From a phage: a DNA stretch of 64,000 nt. The position numbers and the translations under genes are program-made. Positions 1-14,534 of the stretch are shown here, piece by piece (position 1 is the stretch's first letter; every line of letters starts with the position of its first letter). The notes under the pieces were generated by a model, which saw only the letters and a program-made list of their open reading frames with translations, did not search any database and was not told the DNA's origin. The stretch lies in sequence record PZ534511.1. One strand, 5' to 3'.

Positions 1-120
1 CAGCGTGGCGGTGAAGTCTTTCATTTCGTCACGTGGTGTTTTAGTGCAATACCAGATCTCAGGCTTGCCGATCTGTAAGTTGCGTAAAAATTCTGTTTTG
101 CCTGTTTTGTTAGTGATCAT
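1..120 (-). CDS. hypothetical protein (N-terminal part; gene continues beyond window start)
   Basis: Minus-strand ATG at 118-120 with GAGGT upstream; translation MITNKTGKTEFLRNLQIGKPEIWYCTKTPRDEMKDFTATL runs off the window edge. Confidence 0.3.
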   Translation of the reverse strand, partial: MITNKTGKTEFLRNLQIGKPEIWYCTKTPRDEMKDFTATL

Positions 121-324
121 TTGCCAACCTCACCCGATACCGTTGGAAGACAAGATCATATTAGACATGGTTGCAATCAGGCCAATACCCAGGGCAATAG
201 CTAGGATCACCGCATCAATTAATTTCTGTTTCATCTTGTTTTCCTCTTCTTGTTCCAGGTGGCGGACCATTCCACCGCCTTATGTATTATGCTTTGTAAG
301 ATGGTTGTTTGTTTTCAAACTATT

Positions 325-504
325 TTAACGATAATCATCGTACGCTTTATTAACCTGGCGAATATAACATTCAAAAGCCAGATCAATAGATTTATATTCA
401 CGGATATACTCACCATAGGAAACCACATACATTTCTATAGCTTCCTCATATGCGAGGAGAATAGAATCCAAGCCTACGATCTCAGTCTTTGCAATAATAG
501 CCAT
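325..504 (-). CDS. hypothetical small protein (~59 aa)
   Basis: Minus-strand ORF below the 60 aa track cutoff, found by manual translation (MAIIAKTEIVGLDSILLAYEEAIEMYVVSY...); co-directional with neighbours. Confidence 0.3.
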   Translation of the reverse strand: MAIIAKTEIVGLDSILLAYEEAIEMYVVSYGEYIREYKSIDLAFECYIRQVNKAYDDYR

Positions 505-689
505 GATTTTTATCCTCTTTGTGGTTGGTGGGGCTTGCCCCTTTGATTTATATACTACAGTCTTATATGGTCATGTCAACTATTTTCAAAAAATTTTTCT
601 GCTGTGATATTTTTCCCGGTAGGGTTCGCTACTTTCAAAATTCTATCATGCACCGGACGCCCAAAAGAATAAGCGCCGTACACAGTAAA

Positions 690-881
690 CTAATAATCGC
701 CGTCAGGTTGTACTATTACCGCCGCATAGGGTACGCCTTTTTCGTTATTGCTGACAAAATAGATCACGTTGCCATTAATAGCCTCGGTGCGTTTAATTTG
801 TTCCATCATGATGATTTGCCTCTCTTTATTTTCATAATTGGGGGCCTTTTCGGCCCCGCCAGGTTTATTTGTTGATAGCAT
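690..881 (-). CDS. hypothetical small protein (likely starts at internal ATGATG near 806)
   Basis: Track ORF; internal Met pair preceded by AGAGAGG RBS; the upstream part overlaps a GGGGCC..GGCCCC hairpin. Confidence 0.3.
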   Translation of the reverse strand: MLSTNKPGGAEKAPNYENKERQIIMMEQIKRTEAINGNVIYFVSNNEKGVPYAAVIVQPDGDY

Positions 882-1149
882 GCAGCGGGAAAGGTACGCC
901 AGGTTGATAGATAACTTTTACAACCTCATCAGGACAAAAGAAGTTGCAGAACTCACCGCAATAGGCCTCATCCTCTTTTAGCTCTTCATCGACATACTCA
1001 AAAAAGTAGTCGATGCTTGGATAATCCTGACCGGGATTATAGTCAACCATTGTCAGGACTAGTTCAAGATCGTTGCGTAGGATATGCATACCCGCTTTTA
1101 AGTATTTTGCTTCCATTTCTACTACATCGCCAACGGTAACAATAGCCAT
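865..1149 (-). CDS. hypothetical acidic early protein
   Basis: Track ORF 94 aa; RBS ATAGGAG upstream; promoter-like TTGCAT..GATAAT plus 5'-UTR hairpin upstream. Confidence 0.5.
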   Translation of the reverse strand: MAIVTVGDVVEMEAKYLKAGMHILRNDLELVLTMVDYNPGQDYPSIDYFFEYVDEELKEDEAYCGEFCNFFCPDEVVKVIYQPGVPFPLHAINK

Positions 1150-1374
1150 GGTTTTAACTCCTATCTATCCGGTTAATGATTGGGGGCCGCCCCCCTGACA
1201 CGTCCTATTATCCATATTGTAGGGCTTGATGCAAGTACTTCTTTAAAAATTTTTTAAGCGCCTTGGGGGCCGCTGTAGCGCCAAAATAATAAAGGCCATG
1301 CAACCGCATAGCCTTTATGTGATTATATCGCTGCAGGCCCTGCCATGGGCCTTATTTTGCATCATTTGCTGGAA

Positions 1375-1695
1375 TTATTCAGAGAAAACATCGTTCACAA
1401 TAGCGATCACAATGCCGCCCACCTTGTCACGGTCAACAATGCACAAATCACCATAGATCATGTGGTAGTCTGGATGATCTTTCACGGAATAGTCAATGAG
1501 TGTCTTCTTATCGTCCAGCTTTTTGACTTCCATGGTCATTGTAATGAATTGATCGTTAAATGCACTATTGCGGAAGATCATTACCTGGCCGCCTTGACAT
1601 CCAGTGATCTCAACTTCCACGCCGTCTACGATCTGACCATCAAAGAAATAAAGATTATTGGCGGGTATAAACATGATCATTGCTCCTTTTTGCAC
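1375..1695 (-). CDS. hypothetical protein
   Basis: Track ORF 106 aa; RBS AAAGGAG before ATG; preceded by a copy of the 45 bp promoter-hairpin repeat. Confidence 0.5.
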   Translation of the reverse strand: MQKGAMIMFIPANNLYFFDGQIVDGVEVEITGCQGGQVMIFRNSAFNDQFITMTMEVKKLDDKKTLIDYSVKDHPDYHMIYGDLCIVDRDKVGGIVIAIVNDVFSE

Positions 1696-1718
1696 TGATT
1701 ATTTTAACAGGGTTTAAA

Positions 1719-1763
1719 TTTACTTTATTGATGGTCCTGGAGTCAAGACCATCTAAAAATAAA
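1719..1763 (-). repeat. 45 bp intergenic promoter-hairpin repeat, copy 1 (GATGGTC..GACCATC variant)
   Basis: Near-identical to copies at 5426-5470 and 6059-6103; contains TTGACT -35-like element and TAAAYT -10-like element on the minus strand; stem carries a compensatory C>T / G>A change. Confidence 0.7.
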
Positions 1764-1765
1764 TT

Positions 1766-2035
1766 TTACAGGCCTACAATCTCTTTGATTCGTTTAACTG
1801 CTGCCTCAGCGCCTTGGGGGTAGAAATTATGATAACCAATCACGCGGGTAATACTGATCGCCACCTGATGATCTTCATAATACCCCTTGAATATTTCTTG
1901 ACCATCAACCAGCACAGCAATTTTTTCTTCTTTTTTGAAGTTAATAACGCGGATATTGTTGCTCATTTTGTTTCTCCTTTTGGAACTTTGTCTATGTGGT
2001 GGGGGAGTGTCTCCCCGTTGATTGTTATTATCCAT
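1766..2035 (-). CDS. hypothetical protein (probable start at internal Met near 1966, MSNNIRVINF...)
   Basis: Track ORF; internal ATG preceded by AAAAGGAGAAAC RBS; promoter TTGCAA-16-GATAAT and GGGGAG..CTCCCC UTR hairpin upstream. Confidence 0.5.
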   Translation of the reverse strand: MDNNNQRGDTPPPHRQSSKRRNKMSNNIRVINFKKEEKIAVLVDGQEIFKGYYEDHQVAISITRVIGYHNFYPQGAEAAVKRIKEIVGL

Positions 2036-2213
2036 ATTCTGGACCGGATTGCAACACCCCGGAAGAAAAATTTTTTGAAAAGTTAGGCCCCCAGGGATCG
2101 GGGGCCGTTATCAGGTGCGTACAGCGATAAAATACATCCCTACGCCTAACAATATTTCAAGGGCGATGATCTCCAGCCATACCATAACACGGCGCGCCTT
2201 ATCGGTGCGGGGC

Positions 2214-2396
2214 TTATCCTTGGGTGTCATCGTCTCCCCCTTTCCTCCTGTTAGTAGTGACGTGGTTTGCAATGGCCCCCAGGAGTATTATCACCACGCA
2301 CATTACAAGAAAAATTATCTCTGTCGTTGTTCGATCCATTGTTATAAAATTCCTTAAGATCAGGCCTGAAAATAAAGCTTTCATTATTGAATCCAT
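2214..2396 (-). CDS. hypothetical small membrane protein (probable start at internal Met near 2339)
   Basis: Track ORF; hydrophobic stretch IIFLVMCVVIILLGAIA; AAGGAA RBS before the internal ATG. Confidence 0.3.
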   Translation of the reverse strand: MDSIMKALFSGLILRNFITMDRTTTEIIFLVMCVVIILLGAIANHVTTNRRKGGDDDTQG

Positions 2397-2449
2397 CCCG
2401 CCAGGCGGCTGGCCTCAAATCTTCACTAAATGGATTAATTAACGTGGTA

Positions 2450-2854
2450 TTATTTAAACGGCTGGCCCACATATTTTCTATTCCTCTCAAATAAGCGATC
2501 CGCCTCAGTTAAACAAATCTCATGGGCGTGATCTCTGGTTTTAGCTTCATCGAAAACCTGTTGTGCAAGGCTGCAACGTAGGGAGACTGGAAGATCACTA
2601 TAATAGGCGTTGACAAACGTTTGAGCGTCGTACAGGTCTGAAAATACTTTACCCTTTCTATTATTCCCCTTGTCAACAATTGCAAGGATAACCAATACAA
2701 TAGTTGCAACCACCCCCAGGAAAATAGATATAATAAACCATAAAAAGGCGGATCTTCCCATCTTGCCAGCGATCCAGGCGTTAAACAAGGCAACCAATAC
2801 AGCCAAAATAATAAATTCCATTCTATGTACCTCTTTTACAGTTCTGATTAACAA
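2450..2854 (-). CDS. hypothetical membrane protein
   Basis: Track ORF; two predicted TM segments (FIILAVLVALFNAWIAG, FLWFIISIFLGVVATIVLVILAIV); probable start at MEFIIL. Confidence 0.5.
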   Translation of the reverse strand: MLIRTVKEVHRMEFIILAVLVALFNAWIAGKMGRSAFLWFIISIFLGVVATIVLVILAIVDKGNNRKGKVFSDLYDAQTFVNAYYSDLPVSLRCSLAQQVFDEAKTRDHAHEICLTEADRLFERNRKYVGQPFK

Positions 2855-2885
2855 TAAGGCGGCAAATATGCCGCCTGTTACCTGA

Positions 2886-3266
2886 TTAAAAATTATCGCC
2901 GTAAATCTTTCCGCTTTCTACCCATACCACCACGCGAGGCATACTATCCCACACGTCTTGTTTTAGATTGAGCGCGTGCAATTCTTCGGTGGTGCTCATA
3001 CCGGGCACGGGCTGATTGTATACTGCAAAACGACCACCCGCATAATCATAGGCTAGAGTTAAATCACACTGGATCATCTTTTTGATCATGGCATTAAGCA
3101 TGGCGTTAGCCGCATACTGATCACGTTTTAAAGGCAACTCTTTGATTAGTTTGCGATAGTTTTCGATATGGTCGCACACTGTTTCACGCGGAAGATCTTT
3201 CATATCCTCGCGAAAGGTAACCAGGTTAAACATAACGGTGTCAATAGCTTTAGTAGTGTTTTTCAT
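2886..3266 (-). CDS. hypothetical protein
   Basis: Track ORF 126 aa; RBS AGAGGAAAAC; promoter TTGCAA-16-TATATT at 3321-3348. Confidence 0.55.
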   Translation of the reverse strand: MKNTTKAIDTVMFNLVTFREDMKDLPRETVCDHIENYRKLIKELPLKRDQYAANAMLNAMIKKMIQCDLTLAYDYAGGRFAVYNQPVPGMSTTEELHALNLKQDVWDSMPRVVVWVESGKIYGDNF

Positions 3267-3320
3267 GATGTTTTCCTCTTTGTTTTGTGTGGGGGCAAAC
3301 GTCTTGCCCCCTTGAGTTTT

Positions 3321-3348
3321 AATATAGCAGGTTTTTAGGTTATTGCAA
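3321..3348 (-). promoter_or_regulatory. sigma70-like promoter (TTGCAA-16-TATATT) followed by GGGGGCAA..TTGCCCCC 5'-UTR hairpin
   Basis: Hexamers and spacing read directly on the minus strand upstream of the 2886..3266 gene. Confidence 0.5.
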
Positions 3349-3356
3349 CACTTTAT

Positions 3357-3980
3357 TTATGAAAAAGTCATCTCGCCATCTTCATCCACATCAAACCGCC
3401 AATCATTGGCCTCGATAAGGCCGATCAGGTTTTCGGTAGTGAATTGTTCAAGATAGGCCCCCTCCAGGTCTACGTAAACCTTGCGGGATAGCTCCCGTAC
3501 CGTCTCGGTGATCAGCTCTTCCAGGTCTTCCACTTTGTTTTCTTGTTTGGCGGTCAGATCTAGCCAGGTGGTATCAATGTATCCGCTTACAGTGTTTTCA
3601 TGGCTGTAATGGCTGTACTTGTCGCGTTCAACACTGGCTGATAACTCGCCATCGTGCATTGTGCCGAACAAGTGACGAATTGATCGGAACTTGGTCAGGG
3701 CCTTTACTTTACGCAAAAATTTTTCTAAATCCACGTTTTCAGCACTGATTGAAGCGCCGTCACCCTGGCACCAAAAGCCGGACCAATGTACTTCGGTATC
3801 TTCAAGGCCGTACTCTGGAAAGATATATTCTTTGTAGTGTTCAATTACACTTTCTGCAAAAAAGTCATCCCCGCTGTGTTCTTCTCTTTCGCGTACCATT
3901 TCAATGGCTTTTTCTTTTTGTTCGTCGGTCAGCACGTCGAAAGATAAATTGTAACCTGTGGTAATGTTAACGGTGGTCAT
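3357..3980 (-). CDS. hypothetical acidic early protein (207 aa)
   Basis: Track ORF; strong RBS AACAGGAGAAAATATC; highly acidic; preceded by promoter TTGACA-16-TATACT. Confidence 0.6.
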   Translation of the reverse strand: MTTVNITTGYNLSFDVLTDEQKEKAIEMVREREEHSGDDFFAESVIEHYKEYIFPEYGLEDTEVHWSGFWCQGDGASISAENVDLEKFLRKVKALTKFRSIRHLFGTMHDGELSASVERDKYSHYSHENTVSGYIDTTWLDLTAKQENKVEDLEELITETVRELSRKVYVDLEGAYLEQFTTENLIGLIEANDWRFDVDEDGEMTFS

Positions 3981-4036
3981 GATATTTTCTCCTGTTTTCT
4001 TTGTTAGTGGCGGGAAGTTTTCCCGTTTACGTGTTT

Positions 4037-4064
4037 AAGTATACTTATCAAGATTTACTTGTCA
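4037..4064 (-). promoter_or_regulatory. sigma70-like promoter (TTGACA-16-TATACT) with downstream GGCGGGAA..TTCCCG 5'-UTR hairpin (4010-4026)
   Basis: Read on the minus strand: TTGACAagtaaatcttgataagTATACT, then hairpin, then RBS and ATG of the 3357..3980 gene. Confidence 0.6.
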
Positions 4065-4315
4065 ACACTATTTTTTAAATTATTGTGGCGCAAAATGTTT
4101 AAAATCTCCTCAACGTCATCAACACGGCGGCAATTTTTAAACGCTACCAATTGCCCCATGATTTTAATCACTGGGCGGCCTTGCCAGTGCCCCTGGAGAA
4201 AGCGCGCCTTGACTTTATCGGTGGAACTATCACGCCACCAAATAGCCTTGTTGTTGCAGTAGTAAAAATTATTCAGGACAACATCAACTTTATCAAAATT
4301 TTTTAATTTACGCAT
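4055..4315 (-). CDS. hypothetical protein
   Basis: Track ORF 86 aa; co-directional early gene. Confidence 0.45.
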   Translation of the reverse strand: MRKLKNFDKVDVVLNNFYYCNNKAIWWRDSSTDKVKARFLQGHWQGRPVIKIMGQLVAFKNCRRVDDVEEILNILRHNNLKNSVDK

Positions 4316-4533
4316 GGCGTTTACTCCTTTCTCTCTTTGATGTGGTTAGTATAGCTAACCTGTTGACGATGTCAATGATATTTTTAACGCCATAAAACGG
4401 CCTTGGGCGATGTTTTCAGGTTAAAGGGGGCGATTGCATAGGTGGGGGCCTTTTTGGCGCTTACAGGGCCAACCAGGGGCGCTATTCGTAGGATAGAAAT
4501 AAAAAGCCCCGCACAATGGCGGGGCGTTGGTTG

Positions 4534-4755
4534 TTATTTGTCTTTATGGCGGTATCGTTCTGCCTGTCGTTCACGTTCCAAAAGTAGGCCGGGCAATTTA
4601 CGATCATAATGATTACGCCAGATCTTCCCAAACCTTTTTGGCTTATTCAGTTTATTGTTACGCTGGCGGCGTTCTGGCAGCTCTTCGGAATCATGAGGGC
4701 GCTTTACAATTTTCTCGAAATTAATTTTCATATATTCCCCCCTTGCTAACTTCAA
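4534..4755 (-). CDS. hypothetical small basic protein
   Basis: Track ORF; Arg/Lys-rich; probable start at MKINFEKIV. Confidence 0.4.
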   Translation of the reverse strand: MKLARGEYMKINFEKIVKRPHDSEELPERRQRNNKLNKPKRFGKIWRNHYDRKLPGLLLERERQAERYRHKDK

Positions 4756-5137
4756 TATTGGCCTGAATAGCCCGGATACGGCGCTTTATAACTTCCTGAT
4801 CTGTGTGATCGTATCCCCAAAAGTCTACAATTTTTGCGCCCCCAGCCTTTAGGCGGTATAGTGTTTCCTGCATTTTGTAAGCCGGGATCGGTCGCGGTGT
4901 TACCTGGTCGCCCTTCTCATTCTTGTACTTGATAATGTAGTCTTCATTGTCGTTGAATACCCAAAATGGGTATTCTGTGAGCGCGTTGCTCTCTTTTTCG
5001 TTTTTAGATTGGATCTTGTTTACAATTAAAGCCGTAGCAATAGCGCCAATAATAAAACTTGCCCCGCTGATCATGTACTTTCTCCTTTCATTGTGTTGAT
5101 AAACTGTCTTTATAGATGGCCCTGCTACCAGGACCAC
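4721..5137 (-). CDS. hypothetical membrane-anchored protein (probable start near 5074, MISGASF...)
   Basis: Track ORF; internal ATG preceded by AAAGGAGAAAG RBS; N-terminal TM helix FIIGAIATALIV. Confidence 0.5.
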   Translation of the reverse strand: MVLVAGPSIKTVYQHNERRKYMISGASFIIGAIATALIVNKIQSKNEKESNALTEYPFWVFNDNEDYIIKYKNEKGDQVTPRPIPAYKMQETLYRLKAGGAKIVDFWGYDHTDQEVIKRRIRAIQANIEVSKGGIYEN

Positions 5138-5149
5138 CGAAAAAACAGC

Positions 5150-5395
5150 TTATTTGACGATACCGACAAAACAGATCCCGCCTTCCCCTATATAGGCAAT
5201 ATCGGTAATTTTATAATTTGTCAAGATCCGCGTGTTCAGATCATTAATAAAATCGGTCATCGCGTTGGTGTAGTTGTCTTCCGTGTCTAAGGCATAATCC
5301 CAGGTGTAAACCTTTTTACGTCCGAAGCCTTTTACCATGATACGGGCGCTTTTGGTGTTGGTGGGCGCATAATATTTTGTGATTAGTGCTGCCAT
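5150..5395 (-). CDS. hypothetical protein
   Basis: Track ORF 81 aa; RBS AATGAGGAG; preceded by 45 bp repeat copy 2. Confidence 0.5.
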   Translation of the reverse strand: MAALITKYYAPTNTKSARIMVKGFGRKKVYTWDYALDTEDNYTNAMTDFINDLNTRILTNYKITDIAYIGEGGICFVGIVK

Positions 5396-5425
5396 GGTTT
5401 TAACTCCTCATTAGTTCAGTGTTAA

Positions 5426-5470
5426 CAGTGTAAAGTTTACTTTATTGATGGCCCTGGAGTCAAGGCCATC
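5426..5470 (-). repeat. 45 bp intergenic promoter-hairpin repeat, copy 2
   Basis: TTTACTTTATTGATGGCCCTGGAGTCAAGGCCATCTAAAAATAAA; identical to copy 3. Confidence 0.7.
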
Positions 5471-5482
5471 TAAAAATAAATT

Positions 5483-5824
5483 TTACTCGTTTTCTTCCAG
5501 CTCTGAAAGCTCTTCTTTCATTTCTTCCAGCTCTGTCTGCAATTCCTGGTATTCTTCATCGTCCTCAATATCCAGGCTGTCGATGTAGTCGCTAAATCCG
5601 CAGCGGTAAGCGATAGGATCTAACTCCTTGAGGATACGCGACGGAAGAAAAGAAATGTTTCCGATCATAATTTCGCCGTAGATCTCGTCTAACCATTCAT
5701 CATAGTTTTCGTCGTACTTGTCCTCGTCGATTTCAAAGTTATCGATCTTATTCTCAAGGTCTGCGATCTGTTTTTTCAGTTCAGCGATCTGCATAGCTTT
5801 TTCTGCGGCGGTCATAGTAGTCAT
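5483..5824 (-). CDS. hypothetical highly acidic coiled-coil early protein (113 aa)
   Basis: Track ORF; Asp/Glu very abundant (EELQTELEEMKEELSELEENE); driven by consensus promoter at 5875-5902. Confidence 0.55.
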   Translation of the reverse strand: MTTMTAAEKAMQIAELKKQIADLENKIDNFEIDEDKYDENYDEWLDEIYGEIMIGNISFLPSRILKELDPIAYRCGFSDYIDSLDIEDDEEYQELQTELEEMKEELSELEENE

Positions 5825-5874
5825 GGTGTTTTTCTCCTTTTGTGTATTCTGGGAAGTTTTCCCGTTTATGTGCT

Positions 5875-5902
5875 TATTATATCGATTTAAGTTAGCTTGT
5901 CA
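5875..5902 (-). promoter_or_regulatory. consensus sigma70-like promoter (TTGACA-16-TATAAT) followed by GGGAAGTTTTCCC 5'-UTR hairpin (5850-5863)
   Basis: Minus strand reads TTGACAagctaacttaaatcgaTATAAT; both hexamers perfect consensus. Confidence 0.65.
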
Positions 5903-6058
5903 ATTAAAAGTTTAAGAAAAATTTTGCGACACCGTTGGCGCTACCCATCAACATTTGCGCCAGGATGTACCCAATGATGCAAACGATAATAGTTACCTTT
6001 GTGTGCTGGCGTGTAGTACTCATCTTTAAGCCCCCCTTTCCGCTCAACTGTGGTTAGT

Positions 6059-6103
6059 TTACTTTATTGATGGCCCTGGAGTCAAGGCCATCTAAAAATA
6101 AAC
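6059..6103 (-). repeat. 45 bp intergenic promoter-hairpin repeat, copy 3
   Basis: Identical to copy 2. Confidence 0.7.
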
Positions 6104-6499
6104 TCAGTAAGTTTTCAGTACTTTCCCGTCCAACCTGTCTAACTGAATCTCAATAGCTGCAGAAAACCTATTGTAAACCACATCGCCCAGGGAGTCCAGC
6201 CAATCTATGACGTTATACACCTGCTCTTTATTCTTGCAAGTCCGGATCCGTTTCATTACGTAAGACGGATCAATATTAGCGCTCTCGTTGTTGTGGTCAT
6301 GCGCCTGGCCTGCTGCGCTAGTTATAGATTTTACAACCACCTGAAAGGGCTTTAAGGTGCCTTTTGCGTTCATCTCACGCGCTTTCGCGGCGCGGTTGTT
6401 GTATGTTACACAACGGTGGCAAATGTTGACCAAATGCATATCAATAATTTTTTCATCGTTTGCCAGTTCGTTCATGATGCGGCGTACGTTCTTATTCAT
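6104..6499 (-). CDS. hypothetical protein
   Basis: Track ORF 131 aa; RBS AAAGGAAAAAAGATC; promoter TTGACA-16-TAAACT at 6549-6576 with 5'-UTR hairpin 6523-6540. Confidence 0.55.
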   Translation of the reverse strand: MNKNVRRIMNELANDEKIIDMHLVNICHRCVTYNNRAAKAREMNAKGTLKPFQVVVKSITSAAGQAHDHNNESANIDPSYVMKRIRTCKNKEQVYNVIDWLDSLGDVVYNRFSAAIEIQLDRLDGKVLKTY

Positions 6500-6548
6500 G
6501 ATCTTTTTTCCTTTGTGTTGGCGGGAAACATTCCCGCCTTTTGTGTAT

Positions 6549-6576
6549 AGTTTACTTGAATTTTGCAGCGTGTCAA
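6549..6576 (-). promoter_or_regulatory. sigma70-like promoter (TTGACA-16-TAAACT) with GGCGGGAA..TTCCCGCC 5'-UTR hairpin
   Basis: Read on the minus strand upstream of the 6104..6499 gene. Confidence 0.55.
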
Positions 6577-6583
6577 TAATTTT

Positions 6584-6982
6584 TTATTCGTGGGCACATG
6601 TTACAATGTGTTTTTTATAGCCCAGGTGGTCAGCAAGTGCCGACAAAAACTCTTCTTCGTAGATCCAGCCGTCGGCAGTGATCCCCATAGCATTTAATGC
6701 GCCCTCAAGTGCTGCGTTAGCTTTATCGTAACCGTGACCGCTCGCCTTGCCGCCAGTATAACCGTACTTATTGTTCTTGTTGTCGTGAATCCAAAACACG
6801 CAGTAGTGAGTGTTCCCGCTGGCGGCGGCATAATACCGGATCTCAGCTACTTCGTGCAAATTATTGTCATCGTCCAGGCCCACCAGATTATAAGCCTTGT
6901 AAAATCCACGATCACGGCGGCAGTTCTTGACATCAGAAAAAGAAAAGTCCGCATTATCAAAATTAAAGGTAGTGGTTTTCAT
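6584..6982 (-). CDS. hypothetical protein
   Basis: Track ORF 132 aa; RBS AAGAGGATAAAATC. Confidence 0.55.
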   Translation of the reverse strand: MKTTTFNFDNADFSFSDVKNCRRDRGFYKAYNLVGLDDDNNLHEVAEIRYYAAASGNTHYCVFWIHDNKNNKYGYTGGKASGHGYDKANAALEGALNAMGITADGWIYEEEFLSALADHLGYKKHIVTCAHE

Positions 6983-7046
6983 GATTTTATCCTCTTAGTG
7001 TCTTTTGTGCTTTTAGTGTATTTGGTGTCGGACTATATGTCAATAC

Positions 7047-7322
7047 TTATTTTTTATTAAACCAGTGGTTGATCTGTCCTTTTGTCAGGGCGCAACGATC
7101 AAGCTGTTGCAGGGTATAGCTATGACCGCGACGAAATTTATAAAGGCCTTGCCCGTTGTTAATGGTTACATCCACCCGGCAAATCACTTGATTGGTGACC
7201 ACCTGGCGAGTGTTGCGACGTACTTTGATCCCGTATGCGTTCATAAATTTATCCTCTTTACTGGTTAGTGCGGTGTTGTTCACCTTGTAGGGTAATAATA
7301 CCATGATTAACCTTGTTGTCAA
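7047..7322 (-). CDS. hypothetical small basic protein (probable start near 7244, MNAYGIKVRR...)
   Basis: Track ORF; internal ATG preceded by AAAGAGGATAAATTT RBS; promoter-like TTGACA..TATTAC upstream. Confidence 0.45.
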   Translation of the reverse strand: MTTRLIMVLLPYKVNNTALTSKEDKFMNAYGIKVRRNTRQVVTNQVICRVDVTINNGQGLYKFRRGHSYTLQQLDRCALTKGQINHWFNKK

Positions 7323-7325
7323 CGA

Positions 7326-7571
7326 CTATTTTAAATTATTTTTATGATAGAATCCACCTGCCGCCCCCCGCCAGGTTAACCACCATTTTTTTTCGTACTC
7401 TTCTTTATGTTCCAACGCTCCCGCCATAACCTTTTCAACCAGGGCGATAGCTTCCGTATCATTAATCACTACATTTCCCAGGCGAGTAGCATTACCTTTC
7501 ATTTTTGTACCTCTTCTGTAGCTGTTTACTTTATAGTGCGGACCTGCCAGGCTGGCCCCGCCAGGTTGCAA
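7326..7571 (-). CDS. hypothetical small protein (probable start near 7502, MKGNATRLGN...)
   Basis: Track ORF; internal ATG preceded by AGAAGAGGTACAAAA RBS; the N-terminal extension overlaps GC-rich hairpin sequence. Confidence 0.4.
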   Translation of the reverse strand: MQPGGASLAGPHYKVNSYRRGTKMKGNATRLGNVVINDTEAIALVEKVMAGALEHKEEYEKKWWLTWRGAAGGFYHKNNLK

Positions 7572-7610
7572 CGGTTAGCGCATCAGGTTAGAAAAATTTT
7601 TTGAAAAGTG

Positions 7611-7639
7611 TTGACAGCGGCCCCGCCAGGCGGCATAAT
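7611..7639 (+). promoter_or_regulatory. plus-strand sigma70-like promoter (TTGACA-17-CATAAT)
   Basis: Near-consensus hexamers with 17 bp spacer; faces away from the minus-strand early genes into a noncoding region. Confidence 0.55.
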
Positions 7640-7645
7640 ATACCT

Positions 7646-7745
7646 ATCGAAAGGACGGCAGGCACCGGTGACGGGGGAGACAACCACCGGGGATGGGCGC
7701 TTCATAAAATGAGAACGGTTATCATTATCATTTAAAAATTTATGC
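7646..7745 (+). ncRNA. candidate small structured RNA, unit A (GC-rich stem-loop with GAGACAA loop motif, then AT-rich hairpin and U-rich tail)
   Basis: Lies just downstream of the 7611-7639 promoter; no ORF with RBS; shares GGGAGACAAYCACCGGG and GAGAAYNNTTATCATT motifs with unit B. Confidence 0.35.
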
Positions 7746-7789
7746 AAAAAATCCTTGCCTTCTTTGTCCTGTGTGATACTATAATAACA

Positions 7790-7880
7790 AGCCGGGGCAG
7801 CAGGGGCCGGGAGACAATCACCGGGCCTGCCCGTTATTCTGCAAACGAGAATAATTATCATTCAAAATTCTAAATAAGAA
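7790..7880 (+). ncRNA. candidate small structured RNA, unit B (paralogue of unit A)
   Basis: Preceded by TTGCCT..TATAAT promoter-like sequence (7755-7785, 19 bp spacer, weaker); stem GGGCAG..CTGCCC enclosing GGCCGGG/CCGGGCC with loop AGACAATCA. Confidence 0.3.
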
Positions 7881-7945
7881 TCCCTCGCATTTAATAAATT
7901 TAATTAGCATGCTAATTACCCTCCGTAACAATTTCCTATAAAACA

Positions 7946-8160
7946 GTGCCCCATAAAATATTCCCATATAGAAATTTTAAAAATCCATTTCTGAAAACGA
8001 AAAATAGATTTCGTCCCCAAAAATTTCAGGTCGAGATCCGGAACGATTTCCAGAAAATCCGATTCAGAAAACGAAAAACAGATCGAGTACTGAGAAATTT
8101 ATCGAGAAAAATTTTCAGAAAATCCAAGCCCTGGAATGAAAAGTAGATCGAGTACCTGGA
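7946..8160. repeat. AT-rich iteron-like direct repeats (GAAAACGAAAAAYAGAT, AGATCGAGTAC x2, CAGAAAATCC x2, AAATCCATTT)
   Basis: Short imperfect direct repeats read directly; the only large noncoding stretch in the window (about 7.87-8.46 kb). Confidence 0.5.
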
Positions 8161-8467
8161 AAGCTGCACCGCAACTTCAAGATAGTGGTTAGATTGTTAC
8201 CATAGAAGGTCAAGGGTAAGTGGAGGAAGTTCTAGTAGAGGGAGGTTAGCATGTGTGGGAAATCTATAATGGTGGTCTGGAATATGGTGCAAACGATAGG
8301 ATGAGCTATTCAGCTTGTCGCGCCTACTCTGAAAAATCCATTTTAGTTTTCGATCCATTTTCTGATTTTCTAAGAATTTTAAAATATCCAGCCCGGTGAA
8401 ATATCAAAAGGAGGAAATCCATTTTAGAAATCCCCCTTATACTTGATATGCCAGGAATTTTCAAGTA

Positions 8468-8797
8468 TCAGTTGTCTTTGTTTTTAGGTTTGTACATGCG
8501 CAGAGGTATGGTCTTTGTAACATTCCATTTCCTCAACCCTTCCCAGCTCCAGTTGTGGGCGTGGTATCCGGTTATGCATGCACTACTGGAGTGATCGTAA
8601 GCATAAGAGAACGCTAAGCGCACCAGGTGGGGCCAGTCCTTCCATGGTTGTGGACCGTAAGCTTTTCTCCAACACCGACACAAACTAAATGTCTCAAGAA
8701 TAGGAAGGATAACAAATCCATACACCGCCACCAGAATAGCCAGCGCAATGATTGTCAGGAATACATACCCTGCAGTTGAAATGATGATCTCTGTCAT
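8468..8797 (-). CDS. hypothetical membrane protein
   Basis: Track ORF 109 aa; N-terminal TM segment IIISTAGYVFLTIIALAILVAVYGFVILPIL. Confidence 0.5.
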   Translation of the reverse strand: MTEIIISTAGYVFLTIIALAILVAVYGFVILPILETFSLCRCWRKAYGPQPWKDWPHLVRLAFSYAYDHSSSACITGYHAHNWSWEGLRKWNVTKTIPLRMYKPKNKDN

Positions 8798-9057
8798 TTG
8801 TCCTCCCCTTTCTTACGAATATAGATGTGAGAGCCTGCCTGTATATAAATTTCTCGACCATCTTCTGCAAAGATATGAAATACACGATCACCTTCGTACT
8901 CGATACGAGATATTTTCATAATGGTCTTTCCACCTGGGATACGGATCTCGTCCCCCACAGCGATGTTCCATGCAGATTTAAGCTTAAACATCTGCACCTT
9001 CCTTTGGGAGCTCGAACTCTGGCATAGCCATATACGCCACAACAGGGTTGTAATCAA
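8794..9057 (-). CDS. hypothetical protein
   Basis: Track ORF; 4 nt overlap with the downstream gene suggests translational coupling. Confidence 0.4.
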   Translation of the reverse strand: MITTLLWRIWLCQSSSSQRKVQMFKLKSAWNIAVGDEIRIPGGKTIMKISRIEYEGDRVFHIFAEDGREIYIQAGSHIYIRKKGEDK

Positions 9058-9229
9058 AGTAGAAATGACCGTTAATTATCCCAGTTTTGTGAGCATAGTC
9101 ACCAGATCCTGCAAGAACAACCTCGCAAACTCCGAAATCAACCTTGCCATTCTCATCTGCCATGGCTACAATATACTTTCCTAGAGGCATGTTTTTAACG
9201 CCGTCTACAAATGTCCACCCTTTGTTCAT
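8984..9229 (-). CDS. hypothetical protein
   Basis: Track ORF 81 aa. Confidence 0.4.
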   Translation of the reverse strand: MNKGWTFVDGVKNMPLGKYIVAMADENGKVDFGVCEVVLAGSGDYAHKTGIINGHFYFDYNPVVAYMAMPEFELPKEGADV

Positions 9230-9250
9230 AACTTTATCTCCTGGACTTTC

Positions 9251-9583
9251 TTAAGGTAACCAGTAAACAATTTCGCCTTTCAGTTCCATGTCGTTACCGA
9301 CATAGATTTTCCAGCCATCCATTTTAGCCACTGCAGGAGTGAAGTCCGAAGAACCACTAACCTCTTTCCAAGTCCCGTAGTCAGGTTGCCAGATATAGAA
9401 TCCACCTTCCTTGTCCCATGCTCCATATACCACATCGAGCAGGTTGCCCATTGCAACAATAGTAGGCCGTGGGAATAATACATCTACAGATGCGCCACAA
9501 TTTCGGGTATCTTTTAAGTTGCAATCCCAAAAGATGTCTGCCAGTGTGGCGGCGATAGCTTTACGTCTTTCCAATGTTACCAT
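9251..9583 (-). CDS. hypothetical protein
   Basis: Track ORF 110 aa. Confidence 0.45.
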   Translation of the reverse strand: MVTLERRKAIAATLADIFWDCNLKDTRNCGASVDVLFPRPTIVAMGNLLDVVYGAWDKEGGFYIWQPDYGTWKEVSGSSDFTPAVAKMDGWKIYVGNDMELKGEIVYWLP

Positions 9584-9593
9584 GGCACGATAC

Positions 9594-9785
9594 TCACTTG
9601 TTGTTAATAAGTTCTAAAACTTTCTGTCTTACTTTGTCAAGGTCTGTGGATTCAAAAACTGCACGATATCCCCAACTTTGCCCATAGGAGTGACTGCAAT
9701 CCCCGTAGCACCATTGCTCAATTTGATAGTATTCAAGGAACGGGTGCTGTCTAACTATGATACCATCCCGGTTAAAAATTACCAT
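9594..9785 (-). CDS. hypothetical small protein
   Basis: Track ORF 63 aa. Confidence 0.35.
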   Translation of the reverse strand: MVIFNRDGIIVRQHPFLEYYQIEQWCYGDCSHSYGQSWGYRAVFESTDLDKVRQKVLELINNK

Positions 9786-9848
9786 AATACATCACCCTCT
9801 GTTAGTTTATGCGTATATTATACACTGCAGTTTTCAGATGTCAACCTC

Positions 9849-10100
9849 TTACAGATTGCTCCAGTACAATCGGCATTTACATTTTGGGCAATGAGGTTCT
9901 TTTATGTAGTAACCGTCAGTCTTTGGAACACTTTTTGGTGCAGTTTTAAGATTGTACCTGGTAAAACATCGGAAGCAGGTTACCTCTCCCACCTGTTGAT
10001 CGTTGATCCACTCACCGGAGTAAAGTTCTTTCTTGTTTCTCATAATTCTCTCCCAAATCCTCTGCAATCTTATACCAAAATCTCCAGCCAGAAAGCACAC
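9849..10100 (-). CDS. hypothetical zinc-ribbon protein
   Basis: Track ORF; paired Cys motifs CFRCF ... CPKCKC. Confidence 0.45.
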   Translation of the reverse strand: MCFLAGDFGIRLQRIWERIMRNKKELYSGEWINDQQVGEVTCFRCFTRYNLKTAPKSVPKTDGYYIKEPHCPKCKCRLYWSNL

Positions 10101-10294
10101 GGGAACACTTTGAGGATTGAATCTTTACTTGGCTCGGAAGTTCTTTTTCCGTATGGTAGGTAGAAATACCCTCCTGCAGATTCGAATATAGCTCCTTCGG
10201 TTGTATCTACCACAGCAAGAATTAAGATTTTAGTCTCCACAGTGCTCTCCTCTCTTAGTTGTCGTGGAAACTATATCACCTCAGAAGATGGTCG

Positions 10295-10834
10295 TCAACA
10301 CTTTTTGTACTCCACCACGACAATATCTATGTCGAAAGTGGCAAGGTTAATAACGTCCTCTACGTGTTCCAACTTCAAACCGCCTATGCCGCACCCGATC
10401 TTAGGGATGTAGAATGGTAAAGTCGATCCGCTGAATACTTCATTGACTAGCTCAAAGCCTTTCAGGATTGAGAAATACTCAGCATTAGGTCCTGGGTAGA
10501 ACTGGGTATATAGATTGATTCCGTAGACAATACCTATCGGAGATAAGTGCTCCCATCGGGAGAACGCACCCAGTTTACTTAGGCAACCGTATCTAGTCTC
10601 TTTGTCGGCTGACAGTGCTTGAGGAAACTCACGGGCAATCTGTTTTGCTATACCCTTGCCCATTGTGTGGAAGCAGTTACAACCGTGGATCAGGTGACCA
10701 GCACCACTCTTAAAAAGGGAGATTAAATCTCCCTCTACAGTATCAATAATCACGGTAAGCCAGCTCCTCTTCCGCAATTTCAAAAAACTCAGTCCAGCAC
10801 TGTGGCATATTGGAGTTACCGAAGTGGCTTTCAT
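10295..10834 (-). CDS. macro-domain protein (ADP-ribose binding/hydrolase fold); probable GTG start near 10747
   Basis: Motif GAGHLIHGCNCFHTMGKGIAKQIAREFP resembles the macro-domain N-terminal Gly-rich signature; AAGAGGAG RBS precedes an in-frame GTG that overlaps the upstream stop (GTGATTATTGA). Confidence 0.55.
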   Translation of the reverse strand: MKATSVTPICHSAGLSFLKLRKRSWLTVIIDTVEGDLISLFKSGAGHLIHGCNCFHTMGKGIAKQIAREFPQALSADKETRYGCLSKLGAFSRWEHLSPIGIVYGINLYTQFYPGPNAEYFSILKGFELVNEVFSGSTLPFYIPKIGCGIGGLKLEHVEDVINLATFDIDIVVVEYKKC

Positions 10835-11168
10835 AGTAAAGGTTCTTACCGCTAGGAAGGTAGAAATCTGTTACCTCATAAAATCCACAATCGTCGCACT
10901 CACCTTCTTCAAACTTGGCCTTAACCTTAATACCGAGGAAGGTGAAAAGTTTATGGACATCTTCAGTTTCGAACTCCCAGGGAATGTTGTTTTCCGCATC
11001 GGTGTAGAACTGGATCAGCAGACCATTGTCCAGTTTACCAAAATACTCTGTGAAGTAACTTCCTTCCCAGAAATCTTTATGACAAATAATATCCATGCGT
11101 TTGCCCATAATAATGGTGTGAGCGTTTTGGGCATCGTCACGAATCAGTTTTGGCATTTCATAGATCAT
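10743..11168 (-). CDS. hypothetical protein
   Basis: Track ORF 141 aa; stop overlaps the proposed macro-domain start. Confidence 0.5.
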   Translation of the reverse strand: MIYEMPKLIRDDAQNAHTIIMGKRMDIICHKDFWEGSYFTEYFGKLDNGLLIQFYTDAENNIPWEFETEDVHKLFTFLGIKVKAKFEEGECDDCGFYEVTDFYLPSGKNLYYESHFGNSNMPQCWTEFFEIAEEELAYRDY

Positions 11169-11236
11169 CTTAGTTCTCCGGGTTCAACAGGTGGTGGTGC
11201 TACAGGAAGATCATAAAACATGGCTATCACAGTCTC

Positions 11237-11434
11237 TTACACAGGAATTGCTTCAAATAGACCGTTATCTATACCGTCCTTCAGATAGAGATTATATTCT
11301 ATGTCGGTATCTGTATAAAGGGCAGCATCCAGCATTCTATCTGTGAGTCCATCCATCGGGTGGAGAAACCACCACCCACGCCAGTCAAAGTAACAGCCTG
11401 GTGCATCTTCTCTTACACGGATTCGATAAATCAT
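11237..11434 (-). CDS. hypothetical small protein
   Basis: Track ORF 65 aa. Confidence 0.35.
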   Translation of the reverse strand: MIYRIRVREDAPGCYFDWRGWWFLHPMDGLTDRMLDAALYTDTDIEYNLYLKDGIDNGLFEAIPV

Positions 11435-11530
11435 GGGCAGTGGCCTCCTGTTAGTTATACATCCCAGTTTTCTTCGTTCATCACGTCCTCCCGTTCTATG
11501 AAGTTATAATTACACACCTTTCAACTTGTG

Positions 11531-11947: not shown

Positions 11948-11961
11948 TTTTCAGATCTCCT

Positions 11962-11995
11962 TATACAAAAATGCCCCACCATTTCGGGCAGGGCT
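11962..11995 (-). terminator. rho-independent terminator (minus strand)
   Basis: Minus-strand hairpin GCCCTGCCCGAAATGGTGGGGC followed by ATTTTTGTAT; G-U wobbles make the stem minus-strand specific. Confidence 0.55.
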
Positions 11996-12009
11996 ATGTT
12001 AACTAGATG

Positions 12010-12588: not shown

Positions 12589-12596
12589 AACTGACC

Positions 12597-14517: not shown

Positions 14518-14534
14518 CTTAAGGTCTCCTGATA

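What the first reader, a model, noticed from the sequence alone, without database searches (positions are those of the whole stretch)
3321..6576. Repeated early-gene architecture: consensus sigma70-like promoter, GC-rich 5'-UTR hairpin, strong RBS
Several early genes are preceded by near-perfect promoters (for example TTGACA-16-TATAAT at 5875-5902) followed within about 15 nt by stable palindromic hairpins (GGCGGGAAGTTTTCCCG type at 4010-4026, 5850-5863, 6523-6540; GGGGGCAA..TTGCCCCC at 3285-3306). 5'-terminal stem-loops of this kind commonly protect mRNAs from 5'-end-dependent decay. This suggests very strong, stabilised early expression that relies on host RNA polymerase.
Basis: seen in the sequence. 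Interest (0 to 1): 0.4.

Follow-up and report, generated by a model that had tools for sequence, protein, structure and literature searches.

The report
Promoter–hairpin cassettes before early phage genes
This rV5-like coliphage drives many small early genes of unknown function from a repeated ~85-nt module (near-consensus host promoter, G/C hairpin at the start of the transcript, strong ribosome site). The module is real and conserved across two phage subfamilies, but it belongs to an already described kind of phage regulatory cassette, and the hairpin's role is still untested.

Summary

The window is a Vequintavirus (rV5-like) genome at 94–96% identity. Between 230 and 6,600 there are seven or eight cassettes of one homologous family:
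- an A/T tract and TTGACA-16-TAnnnT;
- 9–12 nt later, a stem-loop with a G-rich 5' arm and a C-rich 3' arm;
- a CA/A-rich unstructured leader, a Shine-Dalgarno sequence and ATG.

A covariance model finds the motif only on the gene strand (78/78 hits), including about 45 copies in three phi92-like phages of another subfamily. Nearly all copies sit directly behind a sigma70-like promoter. Orthologous hairpins change sequence by indels, loop inversions, compensatory changes and G·U pairs, yet almost all still fold.

The hairpins have no U-tract, whereas canonical terminators occur nearby. They are therefore not intrinsic terminators, although two GenBank records annotate them so.

That idea remains inference.

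The same region also has hairpins that enclose the -35 or the -10, a repeat-mediated module deletion and cassette-to-cassette gene conversion. Together this matches the PeSL cassettes of T4-like phages, so I file it as a new member of a known kind, of moderate interest.

The parts
6497..6576 (-). Cassette c6576. Promoter TTGACA-16-TAAACT at 6576-6549. Hairpin GGCGGGAA-UGU-UUCCCGCC at 6538-6520. SD AAAGGAA at 6514-6508. ATG at 6499. Downstream ORF 6499-6104 (131 aa, unknown function).
   Evidence: UTR fold -14.6 kcal/mol, z -4.1. CM hit at 38.7 bits. Annotated as a 'terminator' in EdH4 and HdK5, although no U-tract follows it.
5822..5903 (-). Cassette c5903. Promoter TTGACA-16-TATAAT (12/12) at 5903-5876. 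Weak hairpin GGGAA-AAC-UUCCC at 5863-5851. SD AAGGAGA at 5839-5833. ATG at 5824. Downstream ORF 5824-5483 (113 aa).
   Evidence: Fold -5.5 kcal/mol, z -1.7. Equals promoter P192 annotated in rV5. The whole module is absent from phage ime.
3978..4065 (-). Cassette c4065. Promoter TTGACA-16-TATACT at 4065-4038. Hairpin CGGGAA-AAC-UUCCCG at 4025-4011 (GGCGGGAA/UUCCCGCC in 12 of 14 relatives). SD CAGGAGA at 3994-3988. ATG at 3980. Downstream ORF 3980-3357 (207 aa).
   Evidence: The window allele carries 4 clustered changes that match the paralogous c5903 allele of L002, L003 and L007, which indicates gene conversion.
3264..3348 (-). Cassette c3348. Promoter TTGCAA-16-TATATT (TG-extended) at 3348-3321. 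Hairpin GGGGGCAA-GACGU-UUGCCCCC at 3311-3291. SD AGAGGAA at 3279-3273. ATG at 3266. Downstream ORF 3266-2886 (126 aa).
   Evidence: Fold -15.9 kcal/mol, z -3.9. Nine sequence variants in the window plus 14 relatives, all folding, including loop inversion and a G·U variant.
1964..2054 (-). Cassette c2054. Promoter TTGCAA-16-GATAAT at 2054-2027. Hairpin GGGGAG-ACA-CUCCCC at 2016-2002. SD AAGGAGA at 1979-1973. ATG at 1966. A canonical terminator (2106-2086, followed by a U-run) lies upstream in the same intergenic region.
   Evidence: z -2.8. CM hit.
1147..1234 (-). Cassette c1230. Promoter TTGCAT-16-GATAAT at 1234-1207. Hairpin GGGGG-GCGG-CCCCC within 1195-1182. SD UAGGAG at 1163-1158. ATG at 1149. 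A canonical terminator (1318-1289) lies upstream.
   Evidence: Ten variants in relatives, including GGGGG/CCCCC changed to GGAGG/CCTCC. Not significant on its own (z +0.2) and not found by the CM.
502..579 (-). Cassette c579. Promoter TTGACA-16-TAGTAT at 579-552, preceded by an A/T tract. Hairpin GGGG-CAAG-CCCC at 541-530 (GGGGC-AACAA-GCCCC in most relatives). SD AGAGGA at 518-513. ATG at 504.
   Evidence: CM hit at 22.1 bits.
232..291 (-). Cassette c324. A -10-like CATAAT at 291-286 with a poor -35. Hairpin at 279-258. SD AGAGGAA at 247-241. ATG at 234.
   Evidence: z -2.6. Weak CM hit, E 0.027.
4348..4375 (-). Promoter TTGACA-16-TATACT without a hairpin (rV5 P186). It lies inside the finding's span and shows that the hairpin is optional.
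5434..5480 (-). 47-bp repeat, copy 2. Hairpin GAUGGCCUUG-ACUC-CAGGGCCAUC (5467-5444) encloses a -35 (TTGACT-18-TAAACT). This is a different positional class of promoter/stem-loop composite.
   Evidence: The junction of the ime deletion lies in this repeat.
6056..6102 (-). 47-bp repeat, copy 3 (hairpin 6089-6066). It is the other partner of the deletion seen in phage ime.

Best explanation
What it is: these are copies of one homologous, compact expression cassette used by rV5-like and phi92-like coliphages for small early genes of unknown function.

Parts, in order:
- an UP-like A/T tract;
- a near-consensus sigma70 promoter with a 16-nt spacer, read by unmodified host RNA polymerase;
- a start site at a conserved CA about 7-8 nt after the -10 (inferred);
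- a 5-9-bp stem-loop with a G-rich 5' arm and a C-rich 3' arm, beginning mostly 2-5 nt into the transcript;
- a CA/A-rich unstructured leader with a strong Shine-Dalgarno sequence.

How it most likely works: the stem-loop most likely acts in the sense RNA. Sitting at the 5' end, it hinders RppH conversion and 5'-end-dependent entry or scanning by RNase E. The open leader allows efficient translation. The net effect would be strong, longer-lived early expression.

Second property: because the cassettes are repeated, they also serve as homology patches for recombination, as PeSLs do.

Shown: the anatomy, the promoter association, the strand specificity, conservation of folding despite sequence turnover, the absence of terminator features, and the recombination footprints.

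Inferred: the start site, the presence of the hairpin in the mature mRNA, and the stabilising effect.
For: Identity and layout:
- The window is a Vequintavirus with its genes on the minus strand.

Promoters:
- 17 matches on the gene strand against 3.1 +/- 1.8 expected.
- Five are annotated as sigma70 promoters in rV5.

Placement of the hairpin:
- It starts 9-12 nt after the -10 in all the window cassettes.
- It starts 8-12 nt after the -10 in phi92-like phages.
- In 57 of 58 distinct cassettes the stem starts at positions 8-12 of the model segment. In the window's cassettes the distance from stem to ATG varies from 18 to 35 nt.

Strand and promoter association:
- All 78 covariance-model hits at E <= 0.001 lie on the gene strand.
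- 64 of 71 distinct hits have a promoter of >=9/12 immediately upstream, and most of the rest have one offset by a base.

Not a terminator:
- Mean 0.9 T in the 8 nt after the stem; 55 of 58 cassettes have <=2 T.
- Canonical U-tract terminators occur in the same region, twice in the same intergenic space upstream of a cassette promoter (2106-2086 and 1318-1289).

Structure maintained across orthologues:
- c3348 has 9 variants and c1230 has 10, with loop inversions, indels, a G-C to A-U compensation and G·U variants. Almost all still fold (c1230 in L018 is weakened to -4.2 kcal/mol).

Other support:
- The leaders are otherwise unstructured.
- Literature: an appended 5' hairpin stabilises bla mRNA and impedes RppH (PMC3997798). 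Obstacles protect downstream sites from scanning RNase E (abstract of PMC11194081).
Against: - No experimental start sites or half-lives are available for any of these phages.
- The hairpin of the strongest promoter (5903) is marginal (-5.5 kcal/mol, z -1.7). In rV5 it lies 15 nt from the -10, which would leave about 8 unpaired nt.
- Many equally strong early promoters have no hairpin.
- Similar G/C hairpins without U-tracts occur with no promoter (857-841) or around the -35 or -10. A 5'-end role therefore cannot be the only use of such stems.
- The pooled covariation test is weak: 74.5% of cells paired against 70.6% in shuffles, and a slide of -1 does equally well. The stems are largely conserved in sequence and could reflect shared ancestry.
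- The strand-asymmetry test on folding energy is not significant (p = 0.26).
Confidence: 0.5

Rival explanations
1. Terminator or attenuator, the original PeSL reading and the GenBank annotation. The stem-loop would stop or damp read-through from the upstream gene, so that transcription from successive strong promoters does not add up. Its place behind the next promoter would be only compaction.
For: - PeSL stem-loops of RB49/phi1 reduced lacZ expression like a strong terminator (PMC2839356).
- EdH4 and HdK5 annotate several of these hairpins as terminators.
- Hairpins also occur around the -35 and -10 and without promoters.
Against: - No U-tract follows the stem (mean 0.9 T in 8 nt).
- The phage uses canonical U-tract terminators elsewhere, twice upstream of a cassette in the same intergenic region.
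- Tight spacing to the -10, with nearly every copy tied to a promoter, is not predicted by this reading.
Confidence: 0.15
2. Transcription-level aid for very strong promoters. The G-rich initial transcribed sequence and the early RNA hairpin would help promoter escape, prevent backtracking or R-loops, or shape promoter-proximal pausing, rather than change mRNA decay.
For: - Fixed distance to the -10.
- Universal polarity: G-rich 5' arm and C-rich 3' arm in 58 of 58 cassettes.
- Association with near-consensus promoters.
Against: - Equally strong promoters lack the hairpin.
- The polarity can be explained by common descent of the cassettes.
- There is no direct evidence.
Confidence: 0.1
3. Recombination module only. 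The hairpin would be kept because it belongs to a repeated cassette that spreads and shuffles genes (PeSL-type mobility) and would have no role of its own in expression.
For: - Deletion of a 622-bp module between two 47-bp repeats in phage ime.
- Gene conversion between c4065 and c5903.
- Cassette homologues at 74-80% identity in another subfamily.
- All the downstream genes are of unknown function.
Against: - Orthologous stems change sequence but keep pairing, which points to selection on the structure itself.
- The one verified repeat-mediated deletion (ime) used the 47-bp repeat, not the 5'-UTR hairpin class.
Confidence: 0.1
4. DNA operator. The palindrome at about +3 to +22 would bind a phage or host repressor that shuts off early promoters.
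For: - The position resembles that of operators which block RNA polymerase.
- The stem sequence GGCGGGAA/TTCCCGCC recurs across subfamilies.
Against: - The spacing between half-sites varies (loops of 3, 4 and 5 nt).
- Other cassettes use unrelated stems (GGGGGCAA, GGGGAG, GGAGG).
- Compensatory and G·U changes preserve pairing rather than sequence.
- Loop inversions are tolerated.
Confidence: 0.05
5. Antisense terminators. On the plus strand the hairpins are followed by T-rich runs and would stop convergent transcription from running into the promoters.
For: The consensus scan flags 3291-3311, 5850-5864 and 6520-6538 as terminator-like on the plus strand. A mean of 4 of the 8 following bases are T.
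Against: - There are only 2 plus-strand promoter matches in 17 kb.
- The T-richness is simply the complement of the A-rich start region, and it is poor in the phi92-like copies.
- All model hits are specific to the gene strand.
Confidence: 0.03

Closest known systems
PeSL (promoter-early stem-loop) cassettes of T4-like phages RB49/phi1, PST and nt-1 (Arbiol et al. 2010, PMC2839356; Comeau et al. 2014, PMC4122927)
   Same: - A near-consensus sigma70 promoter with an A/T-rich upstream tract, a G(n)-loop-C(n) stem-loop, a Shine-Dalgarno sequence and a start codon, all in under 100 nt.
- Many copies upstream of genes of unknown function in variable early regions.
- Stem-loops at several positions relative to the promoter, including 'downstream of the -10'.
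- Recombination between copies.
- A PeSL in RB49-like phage kvi has the same layout as the window's 15536 cassette.
- Some early genes are shared between the two phage groups at 78% aa identity.
   Different: - PeSLs were described only in T4-like phages (Straboviridae). The host group here is Vequintavirinae and Stephanstirmvirinae.
- The dominant placement here is after the -10, inside the transcript. In RB49 it is between the boxes or over the -10.
- No sequence homology to RB49 cassettes was detected.
- The terminator activity and mini-circles reported for PeSLs were not tested here, and the stems lack U-tracts.
5'-terminal stem-loop mRNA stabilisers of E. coli (ompA and papA leaders; hairpin appended to bla; Emory, Bouvet and Belasco 1992, as reviewed in PMC3997798)
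   Same: A stable stem-loop within a few nucleotides of the predicted 5' end, followed by an open leader with a strong ribosome site.
   Different: Those elements were shown experimentally to prolong half-life. Here both the 5' end and the effect are predictions, and some stems are weak or lie further from the predicted start.
5' stem-loop of phage T7 late transcripts (phi10 / gene 10 leader, GGGAGACCACAACGGUUUCCC); recalled from memory, not checked here
   Same: A phage promoter followed at once by a hairpin with a G-rich 5' arm and a C-rich 3' arm, then a strong ribosome site. It is widely used as a compact high-expression module.
   Different: It is made by T7 RNA polymerase, and its G-rich start is dictated by that polymerase. 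Here the host sigma70 holoenzyme is used.
Rho-independent (intrinsic) terminators
   Same: A short G/C-rich stem-loop in an intergenic region. These hairpins are annotated as terminators in two related GenBank records.
   Different: No U-tract on the sense strand, and a position behind a promoter rather than at the end of a transcription unit.

Membership tests
PeSL regulatory cassettes | Sigma70-consensus-like early promoter with an A/T-rich tract upstream of the -35 | tested here: met
   TTGACA/TTGCAA-16-TAnnnT in all cassettes. A/T tracts precede the -35 at 579, 4065, 5903 and 6576. Enrichment over shuffles.
PeSL regulatory cassettes | Stable stem-loop (often polyG...polyC) placed at one of several positions relative to the promoter | tested here: met
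   Positions found: after the -10 (7-8 cassettes); enclosing the -35 (47-bp repeats); enclosing the -10 (15525-15497, 14247-14217); between the boxes (2876-2857). The 5' arm is G-rich in 58 of 58.
PeSL regulatory cassettes | Shine-Dalgarno sequence and start codon of a (mostly unknown-function) gene at the 3' end; clustering in variable early regions | tested here: met
   SD and ATG. The downstream proteins have no Pfam family and fall in PHROGs of unknown function. All the window hits lie within 250-6,550.
PeSL regulatory cassettes | Recombination between copies creates insertions, deletions or replacements between close relatives | tested here: met
   Phage ime lacks window 5481-6102, with a single repeat copy at the junction. 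ECP26 shows the same alignment boundary. The c4065 allele was converted to c5903-type sequence. Other indels (1361, 12015-12588) are not cassette-mediated.
PeSL regulatory cassettes | Stem-loop acts as a transcription terminator or attenuator; promoter is very strong in vivo; mini-circles are formed | not testable with these tools
   These need reporter assays and PCR on phage DNA. The sequence argues against canonical termination because there is no U-tract.
PeSL regulatory cassettes | Host phage is a T4-like myovirus; sequence relatedness to RB49/phi1 PeSLs | tested here: not met
   The window is Vequintavirus. A BLAST of cassette c6576 hits only Vequintavirinae and Stephanstirmvirinae-type phages. 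The match is therefore in architecture and behaviour, not in demonstrable homology.
5'-terminal stem-loop mRNA stabilisers | Stem-loop begins within a few (about <=4-5) unpaired nucleotides of the transcript 5' end | tested here: inconclusive
   The start site is predicted only (7-8 nt after the -10, at a conserved CA). This gives 2-6 unpaired nt in the window cassettes and about 8 for c5903 in rV5. No start-site data were found.
5'-terminal stem-loop mRNA stabilisers | Removing the stem shortens mRNA half-life in an RppH/RNase E-dependent way | not testable with these tools
   An experiment is required.
Intrinsic terminators | G/C stem-loop immediately followed by a U-rich tract on the transcribed strand | tested here: not met
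   Mean 0.9 T in the 8 nt after the stem; 55 of 58 cassettes have <=2. True terminators nearby do have U-runs (4525-4506, 2106-2086, 1318-1289, 11994-11973).

The most novel reading that the evidence does not exclude
The 5' hairpin could be a 'self' mark on phage early mRNAs. These phages encode an Srd/sigma70-decoy-like protein (about 36563-37541; rV5 gp11). T4 Srd stimulates RNase E against host mRNA while phage mRNA is stabilised (Qi 2015 and Ueno 2004, as cited in PMC4980113). A portable promoter-plus-hairpin cassette, spreading by recombination across two phage subfamilies, would then let any newly acquired early gene escape the phage-induced acceleration of 5'-end-dependent decay.
Probability: 0.12. 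Interest if true: 0.65.

Novelty: new member of a known kind. Interest (0 to 1): 0.35.

Why it matters
If the cassette works as proposed, three things follow.
- It explains how rV5-like and phi92-like phages obtain immediate, high expression of dozens of tiny host-takeover genes using only the host polymerase.
- It extends the PeSL idea of mobile promoter/stem-loop modules that shuffle early genes beyond T4-like phages.
- It corrects a recurring mis-annotation of these stems as terminators.

In practical terms, the ~85-nt module (UP tract, consensus promoter, 5' hairpin, open leader, strong Shine-Dalgarno sequence) is a natural, compact high-expression part. The many natural variants form a ready-made series for testing how 5' stem strength and distance from the 5' end affect mRNA life in E. 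coli.

Tried and rejected
- **Rfam:** a scan of 1-17,000 at E <= 0.1 gave no known RNA family.
- **Literature:** searches for start-site or transcriptome data, or for any description of these cassettes in Vequintavirinae or Stephanstirmvirinae, found nothing relevant. The rV5 paper lists promoters and terminators but not the hairpin association.
- **IMG/VR:** a search for relatives of the 207-aa protein gave only two close loci. Orthologues were therefore taken from GenBank phage records.
- **Pooled covariation:** the test on the covariance-model alignment was inconclusive, because the stems are G-runs and C-runs of differing register.
- **Fold asymmetry:** the whole-segment comparison of sense and antisense folding was not significant and is confounded by the flanks.
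- **BLAST 'insertion':** an apparent 1.3-kb insertion in relatives was an artefact of joining a repeat hit.
- **Indel at 1361/1362:** this is a plain in-frame gene deletion and is not cassette-mediated.
- **Extra 12010-12588 segment:** this is an endonuclease VII/HNH-like gene.
- **Other readings:** operator, antisense-terminator and RNase III-site readings were considered and set aside. The reasons are variable half-site spacing, gene-strand specificity, and stems of only 5-9 bp.

Full report
**What the window is.** Region 3000-7000 matches 123 phage records at 94-96% identity. All are rV5-like coliphages (Vequintavirus: EdH4, Murica, rV5 and others), and about 20 of them are mislabelled 'Campylobacter phage' records. 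In these genomes, and in the window, the genes of this region lie on the minus strand. The minus-strand unit runs from a divergent promoter pair near 36,490/36,504 down to position 1. The finding must therefore be read on the minus strand.

**Observation check.**
- TTGACA-16-TATAAT lies at 5903-5876 and scores 12/12.
- The hairpins lie at 4025-4011, 5863-5851, 6538-6520 and 3311-3291.
- Each stem starts 9-12 nt after a -10 hexamer.
- Each is followed by a CA/A-rich leader, an AGGAG/GAGGA-type Shine-Dalgarno sequence and an ATG.
- Promoter-like sites of >=10/12 number 17 on the minus strand of 1-17,000. There are 2 on the plus strand and 3.1 +/- 1.8 in dinucleotide shuffles.
- Five of them (4375, 5903, 7043, 7322, 9844) correspond to sigma70 promoters annotated in rV5 (rV5 paper PMC3606486).

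Hairpin strength is uneven.
- The predicted leaders of 6576, 3348, 2054 and the 258-279 cassette fold far better than shuffles (z -4.1, -3.9, -2.8, -2.6).
- Those of 5903, the window's 4065 allele, 579 and 1230 do not (z -1.7, -1.6, -1.0, +0.2).
- Several equally strong promoters have no hairpin.

**Catalogue.** Their promoters end at 552, 1207, 2027, 3321, 4038, 5876 and 6549. A weaker one has its hairpin at 279-258. All have a 16-nt spacer. The same survey shows other arrangements.
- A 47-bp repeat (three copies plus one variant) has a hairpin that encloses a -35.
- A 12/12 promoter at 15536-15508 has its -10 in the loop of a 10-bp stem.
- One promoter-less G/C hairpin lies right after a stop codon (857-841).
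- Canonical terminators with U-runs lie at 4525-4506, 2106-2086, 1318-1289 and 11994-11973.

Two cassette-bearing intergenic regions hold a canonical terminator, then the promoter, then the hairpin. This argues that the hairpin is not the terminator.

**Comparative evidence.** I compared 14 close relatives (L001-L007, L014-L020). Every orthologous hairpin varies in sequence, and almost all variants still fold.
- c3348 has 9 variants. They include an exact inversion of the loop and inner stem, poly-G length changes and a G·U-containing stem.
- c1230 has 10 variants, including GGGGG/CCCCC changed to GGAGG/CCTCC.
- c4065 and c6576 show a U·G wobble and a loop inversion in the most distant relative.
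- A few variants weaken the stem, for example c2054 in L016/L017 and c1230 in L018.

The cassette is not confined to Vequintavirus.
- A BLAST of c6576 finds 74-80% matches in phi92-like and related Escherichia, Klebsiella and Serratia phages.
- Scanning three Stephanstirmvirinae loci shows many copies of TTGACA-16/17-TAnnnT. About 10 nt further on (..CAC[A/G]TA) comes GGCGGGAA-loop-TTCCCGCC, GGCGGCAATGGTGCCGCC or AGCGGGAACTATTCCCGCT, followed by an A-rich leader and a Shine-Dalgarno sequence.

I built a covariance model from 13 cassettes.
- It recovers 78 hits at E <= 0.001, and all are on the gene strand.
- The window's hits (five at E <= 0.001, seven at E <= 1) all lie below 6,600.
- Of 71 distinct hits, 64 have a promoter of >=9/12 ending just upstream. 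Most of the remainder have one offset by a base.

Among 58 distinct sequences:
- the stem starts at positions 8-12 of the model segment in 57;
- stems are 4-10 bp long and loops are 3-5 nt;
- the mean hairpin energy is -10.8 kcal/mol;
- the 5' arm is G-rich in all 58;
- the 8 nt after the stem hold on average 0.9 T.

**Limits of the structural evidence.**
- The pooled pair count is only weakly better than shuffles: 74.5% of cells paired against 70.6%, and a covariation score reached by 9 of 500 shuffles. A one-column slide does as well, because the stems are G- and C-runs of varying register.
- The sense-versus-antisense energy comparison is not significant (p = 0.26). However, a recurrent terminal G·U makes about a dozen stems 3-4 kcal/mol more stable in the sense RNA.
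- The case for selection on structure therefore rests mainly on the orthologue series, not on a formal covariation statistic.

**What the hairpin is not.**
- It is not an intrinsic terminator on the sense strand, because it has no U-tract, even though EdH4 and HdK5 annotate it so.
- It is not a convincing antisense terminator. The T-richness is the complement of the A-rich start region and fades in the phi92-like copies, and there are almost no plus-strand promoters.
- It is probably not a protein operator. Loop length varies from 3 to 5 nt, unrelated stem sequences occupy the same place, loop inversions are tolerated, and changes preserve pairing rather than sequence.
- It is too short (5-9 bp) for RNase III.
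- No Rfam family matches.

**Most likely mechanism.**
- E. coli RNA polymerase usually starts 7-8 nt after the -10 at a purine preceded by a pyrimidine (established knowledge). On that rule, the conserved CA in these cassettes places +1 so that 2-6 nt, mostly 3-4, precede the stem.
- A 5' hairpin appended to bla mRNA stabilises it and impedes RppH (review PMC3997798).
- Obstacles in the 5' region protect downstream sites from RNase E that scans from the 5' end (PMC11194081).
- The rest of each leader is predicted to be open, which suits efficient initiation.
I put it at about 0.5, because neither the start sites nor any effect on stability has been measured. The 5903 hairpin is weak and, in rV5, is displaced to 15 nt from the -10.

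**Relation to known systems.** The closest described system is the PeSL of T4-like phages. Its features are a consensus sigma70 promoter with an A/T-rich upstream tract, a G(n)-loop-C(n) stem-loop at one of five positions (including just downstream of the -10), and a Shine-Dalgarno sequence with a start codon. PeSLs are concentrated upstream of genes of unknown function in hyperplastic regions and mediate modular shuffling (PMC2839356; PMC4122927). The window meets the architectural criteria.
- The downstream genes have no known function.
- Phage ime lacks exactly the 622-bp module between two copies of the 47-bp repeat, with one copy left at the junction.
- The window's c4065 carries four clustered substitutions that make a 33-nt block identical to the c5903 allele of other phages. 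This is a gene-conversion footprint.
- An RB49-like phage (kvi) shares an early gene with the window at 78% aa identity. It carries a PeSL with the same layout as the window's 15536 cassette.

There are also differences from the described PeSLs.
- The host group differs; PeSLs are described only for T4-likes.
- The dominant hairpin position here is inside the transcript.
- No sequence homology to RB49 cassettes was detected.
- The terminator and mini-circle properties are untested.

I therefore file this as a new member of a known kind and not as a new mechanism.

**Most novel reading still open.** The window encodes a protein related to Srd/sigma70-decoy proteins (rV5 gp11). T4 Srd stimulates RNase E on host mRNA while phage mRNA is stabilised (as cited in PMC4980113). 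A portable 5' hairpin could be the mark that spares phage early mRNAs. This is speculation, at a probability of about 0.12.

**Verdict.** The feature is a real, widespread and strand-specific promoter-hairpin cassette family. Its kind is already known, its RNA-stabilising role is plausible but unproven, and its current database annotation as a terminator is probably wrong. Interest is moderate, at 0.35.

Noticed in passing
window 1704-1762, 5422-5486, 6056-6102 (variant 5111-5134): A 47-bp repeat whose 10-bp hairpin (with a sense-strand U·G wobble) carries a -35 box (TTGACT-18-TAAACT). Copy 1 shows a compensatory C-G to U-A change. Phage ime, and apparently ECP26, lack the 622-bp two-gene module between copies 2 and 3.
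   Followed up: yes
window 15497-15536: A perfect TTGACA-17-TATAAT promoter with the -10 in the loop of AGATGGGGCC/GGCCCCATCT. Relatives show two G-C to A-U compensations and a G·U intermediate. RB49-like phage kvi has the same layout (L024 677-735).
   Followed up: partly
window 7503-8323: A large non-coding stretch with three 62-nt direct repeats (7962-8162) and repeated GGCCCCGCCAGG motifs (7364-7635). It also varies between relatives (7413-7540). It may be an origin-like or regulatory region; the rV5 paper also marks a 'non-coding' box.
   Followed up: no
window 12010-12588 (-): A 192-aa endonuclease VII/HNH-like ORF that is absent from four close relatives (L002-L005). It sits beside a terminator hairpin and is probably a mobile (homing-type) insertion.
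   Followed up: partly
window ~1350-1375: The remnant ATGATGCAAAATAA marks an in-frame deletion of a 351-bp gene that is present in EdH4, ime, HdK5 and rV5_ev156.
   Followed up: yes
window 3291-3311, 6520-6538, 2857-2876 versus L003, L007, L015-L017: Exact inversions of the hairpin loop (and inner stem) occur between orthologues. This is a sign of template-switch mutation at inverted repeats.
   Followed up: partly
window 24266-24340 (-): An 11/12 promoter match inside the end of a gene is followed 20 nt later by a strong terminator with two G·U pairs and a U-run, just before the next gene's Shine-Dalgarno sequence. This may be an attenuator arrangement.
   Followed up: no
window ~36563-37541 (+): The first gene of the divergent unit matches PHROGs named 'decoy of host sigma70' and 'Srd anti-sigma factor' (E 1e-10 to 1e-13). 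Its best match is a family labelled HNH endonuclease.
   Followed up: partly
window 9849-10043 (-) and L024: This early ORF is 78% identical at the protein level to genes of RB49-like Krischvirus phages, so early genes are exchanged between unrelated myovirus groups.
   Followed up: partly
GenBank records MG0656xx (L015-L018, L020): About 20 'UNVERIFIED Campylobacter phage' records are in fact Vequintavirus genomes, 88-96% identical to this window.
   Followed up: no
alignment A3 (window plus L002-L023): All 58 distinct cassette hairpins have a G-rich 5' arm and a C-rich 3' arm. Whether this polarity is functional or only inherited is unexplained.
   Followed up: partly
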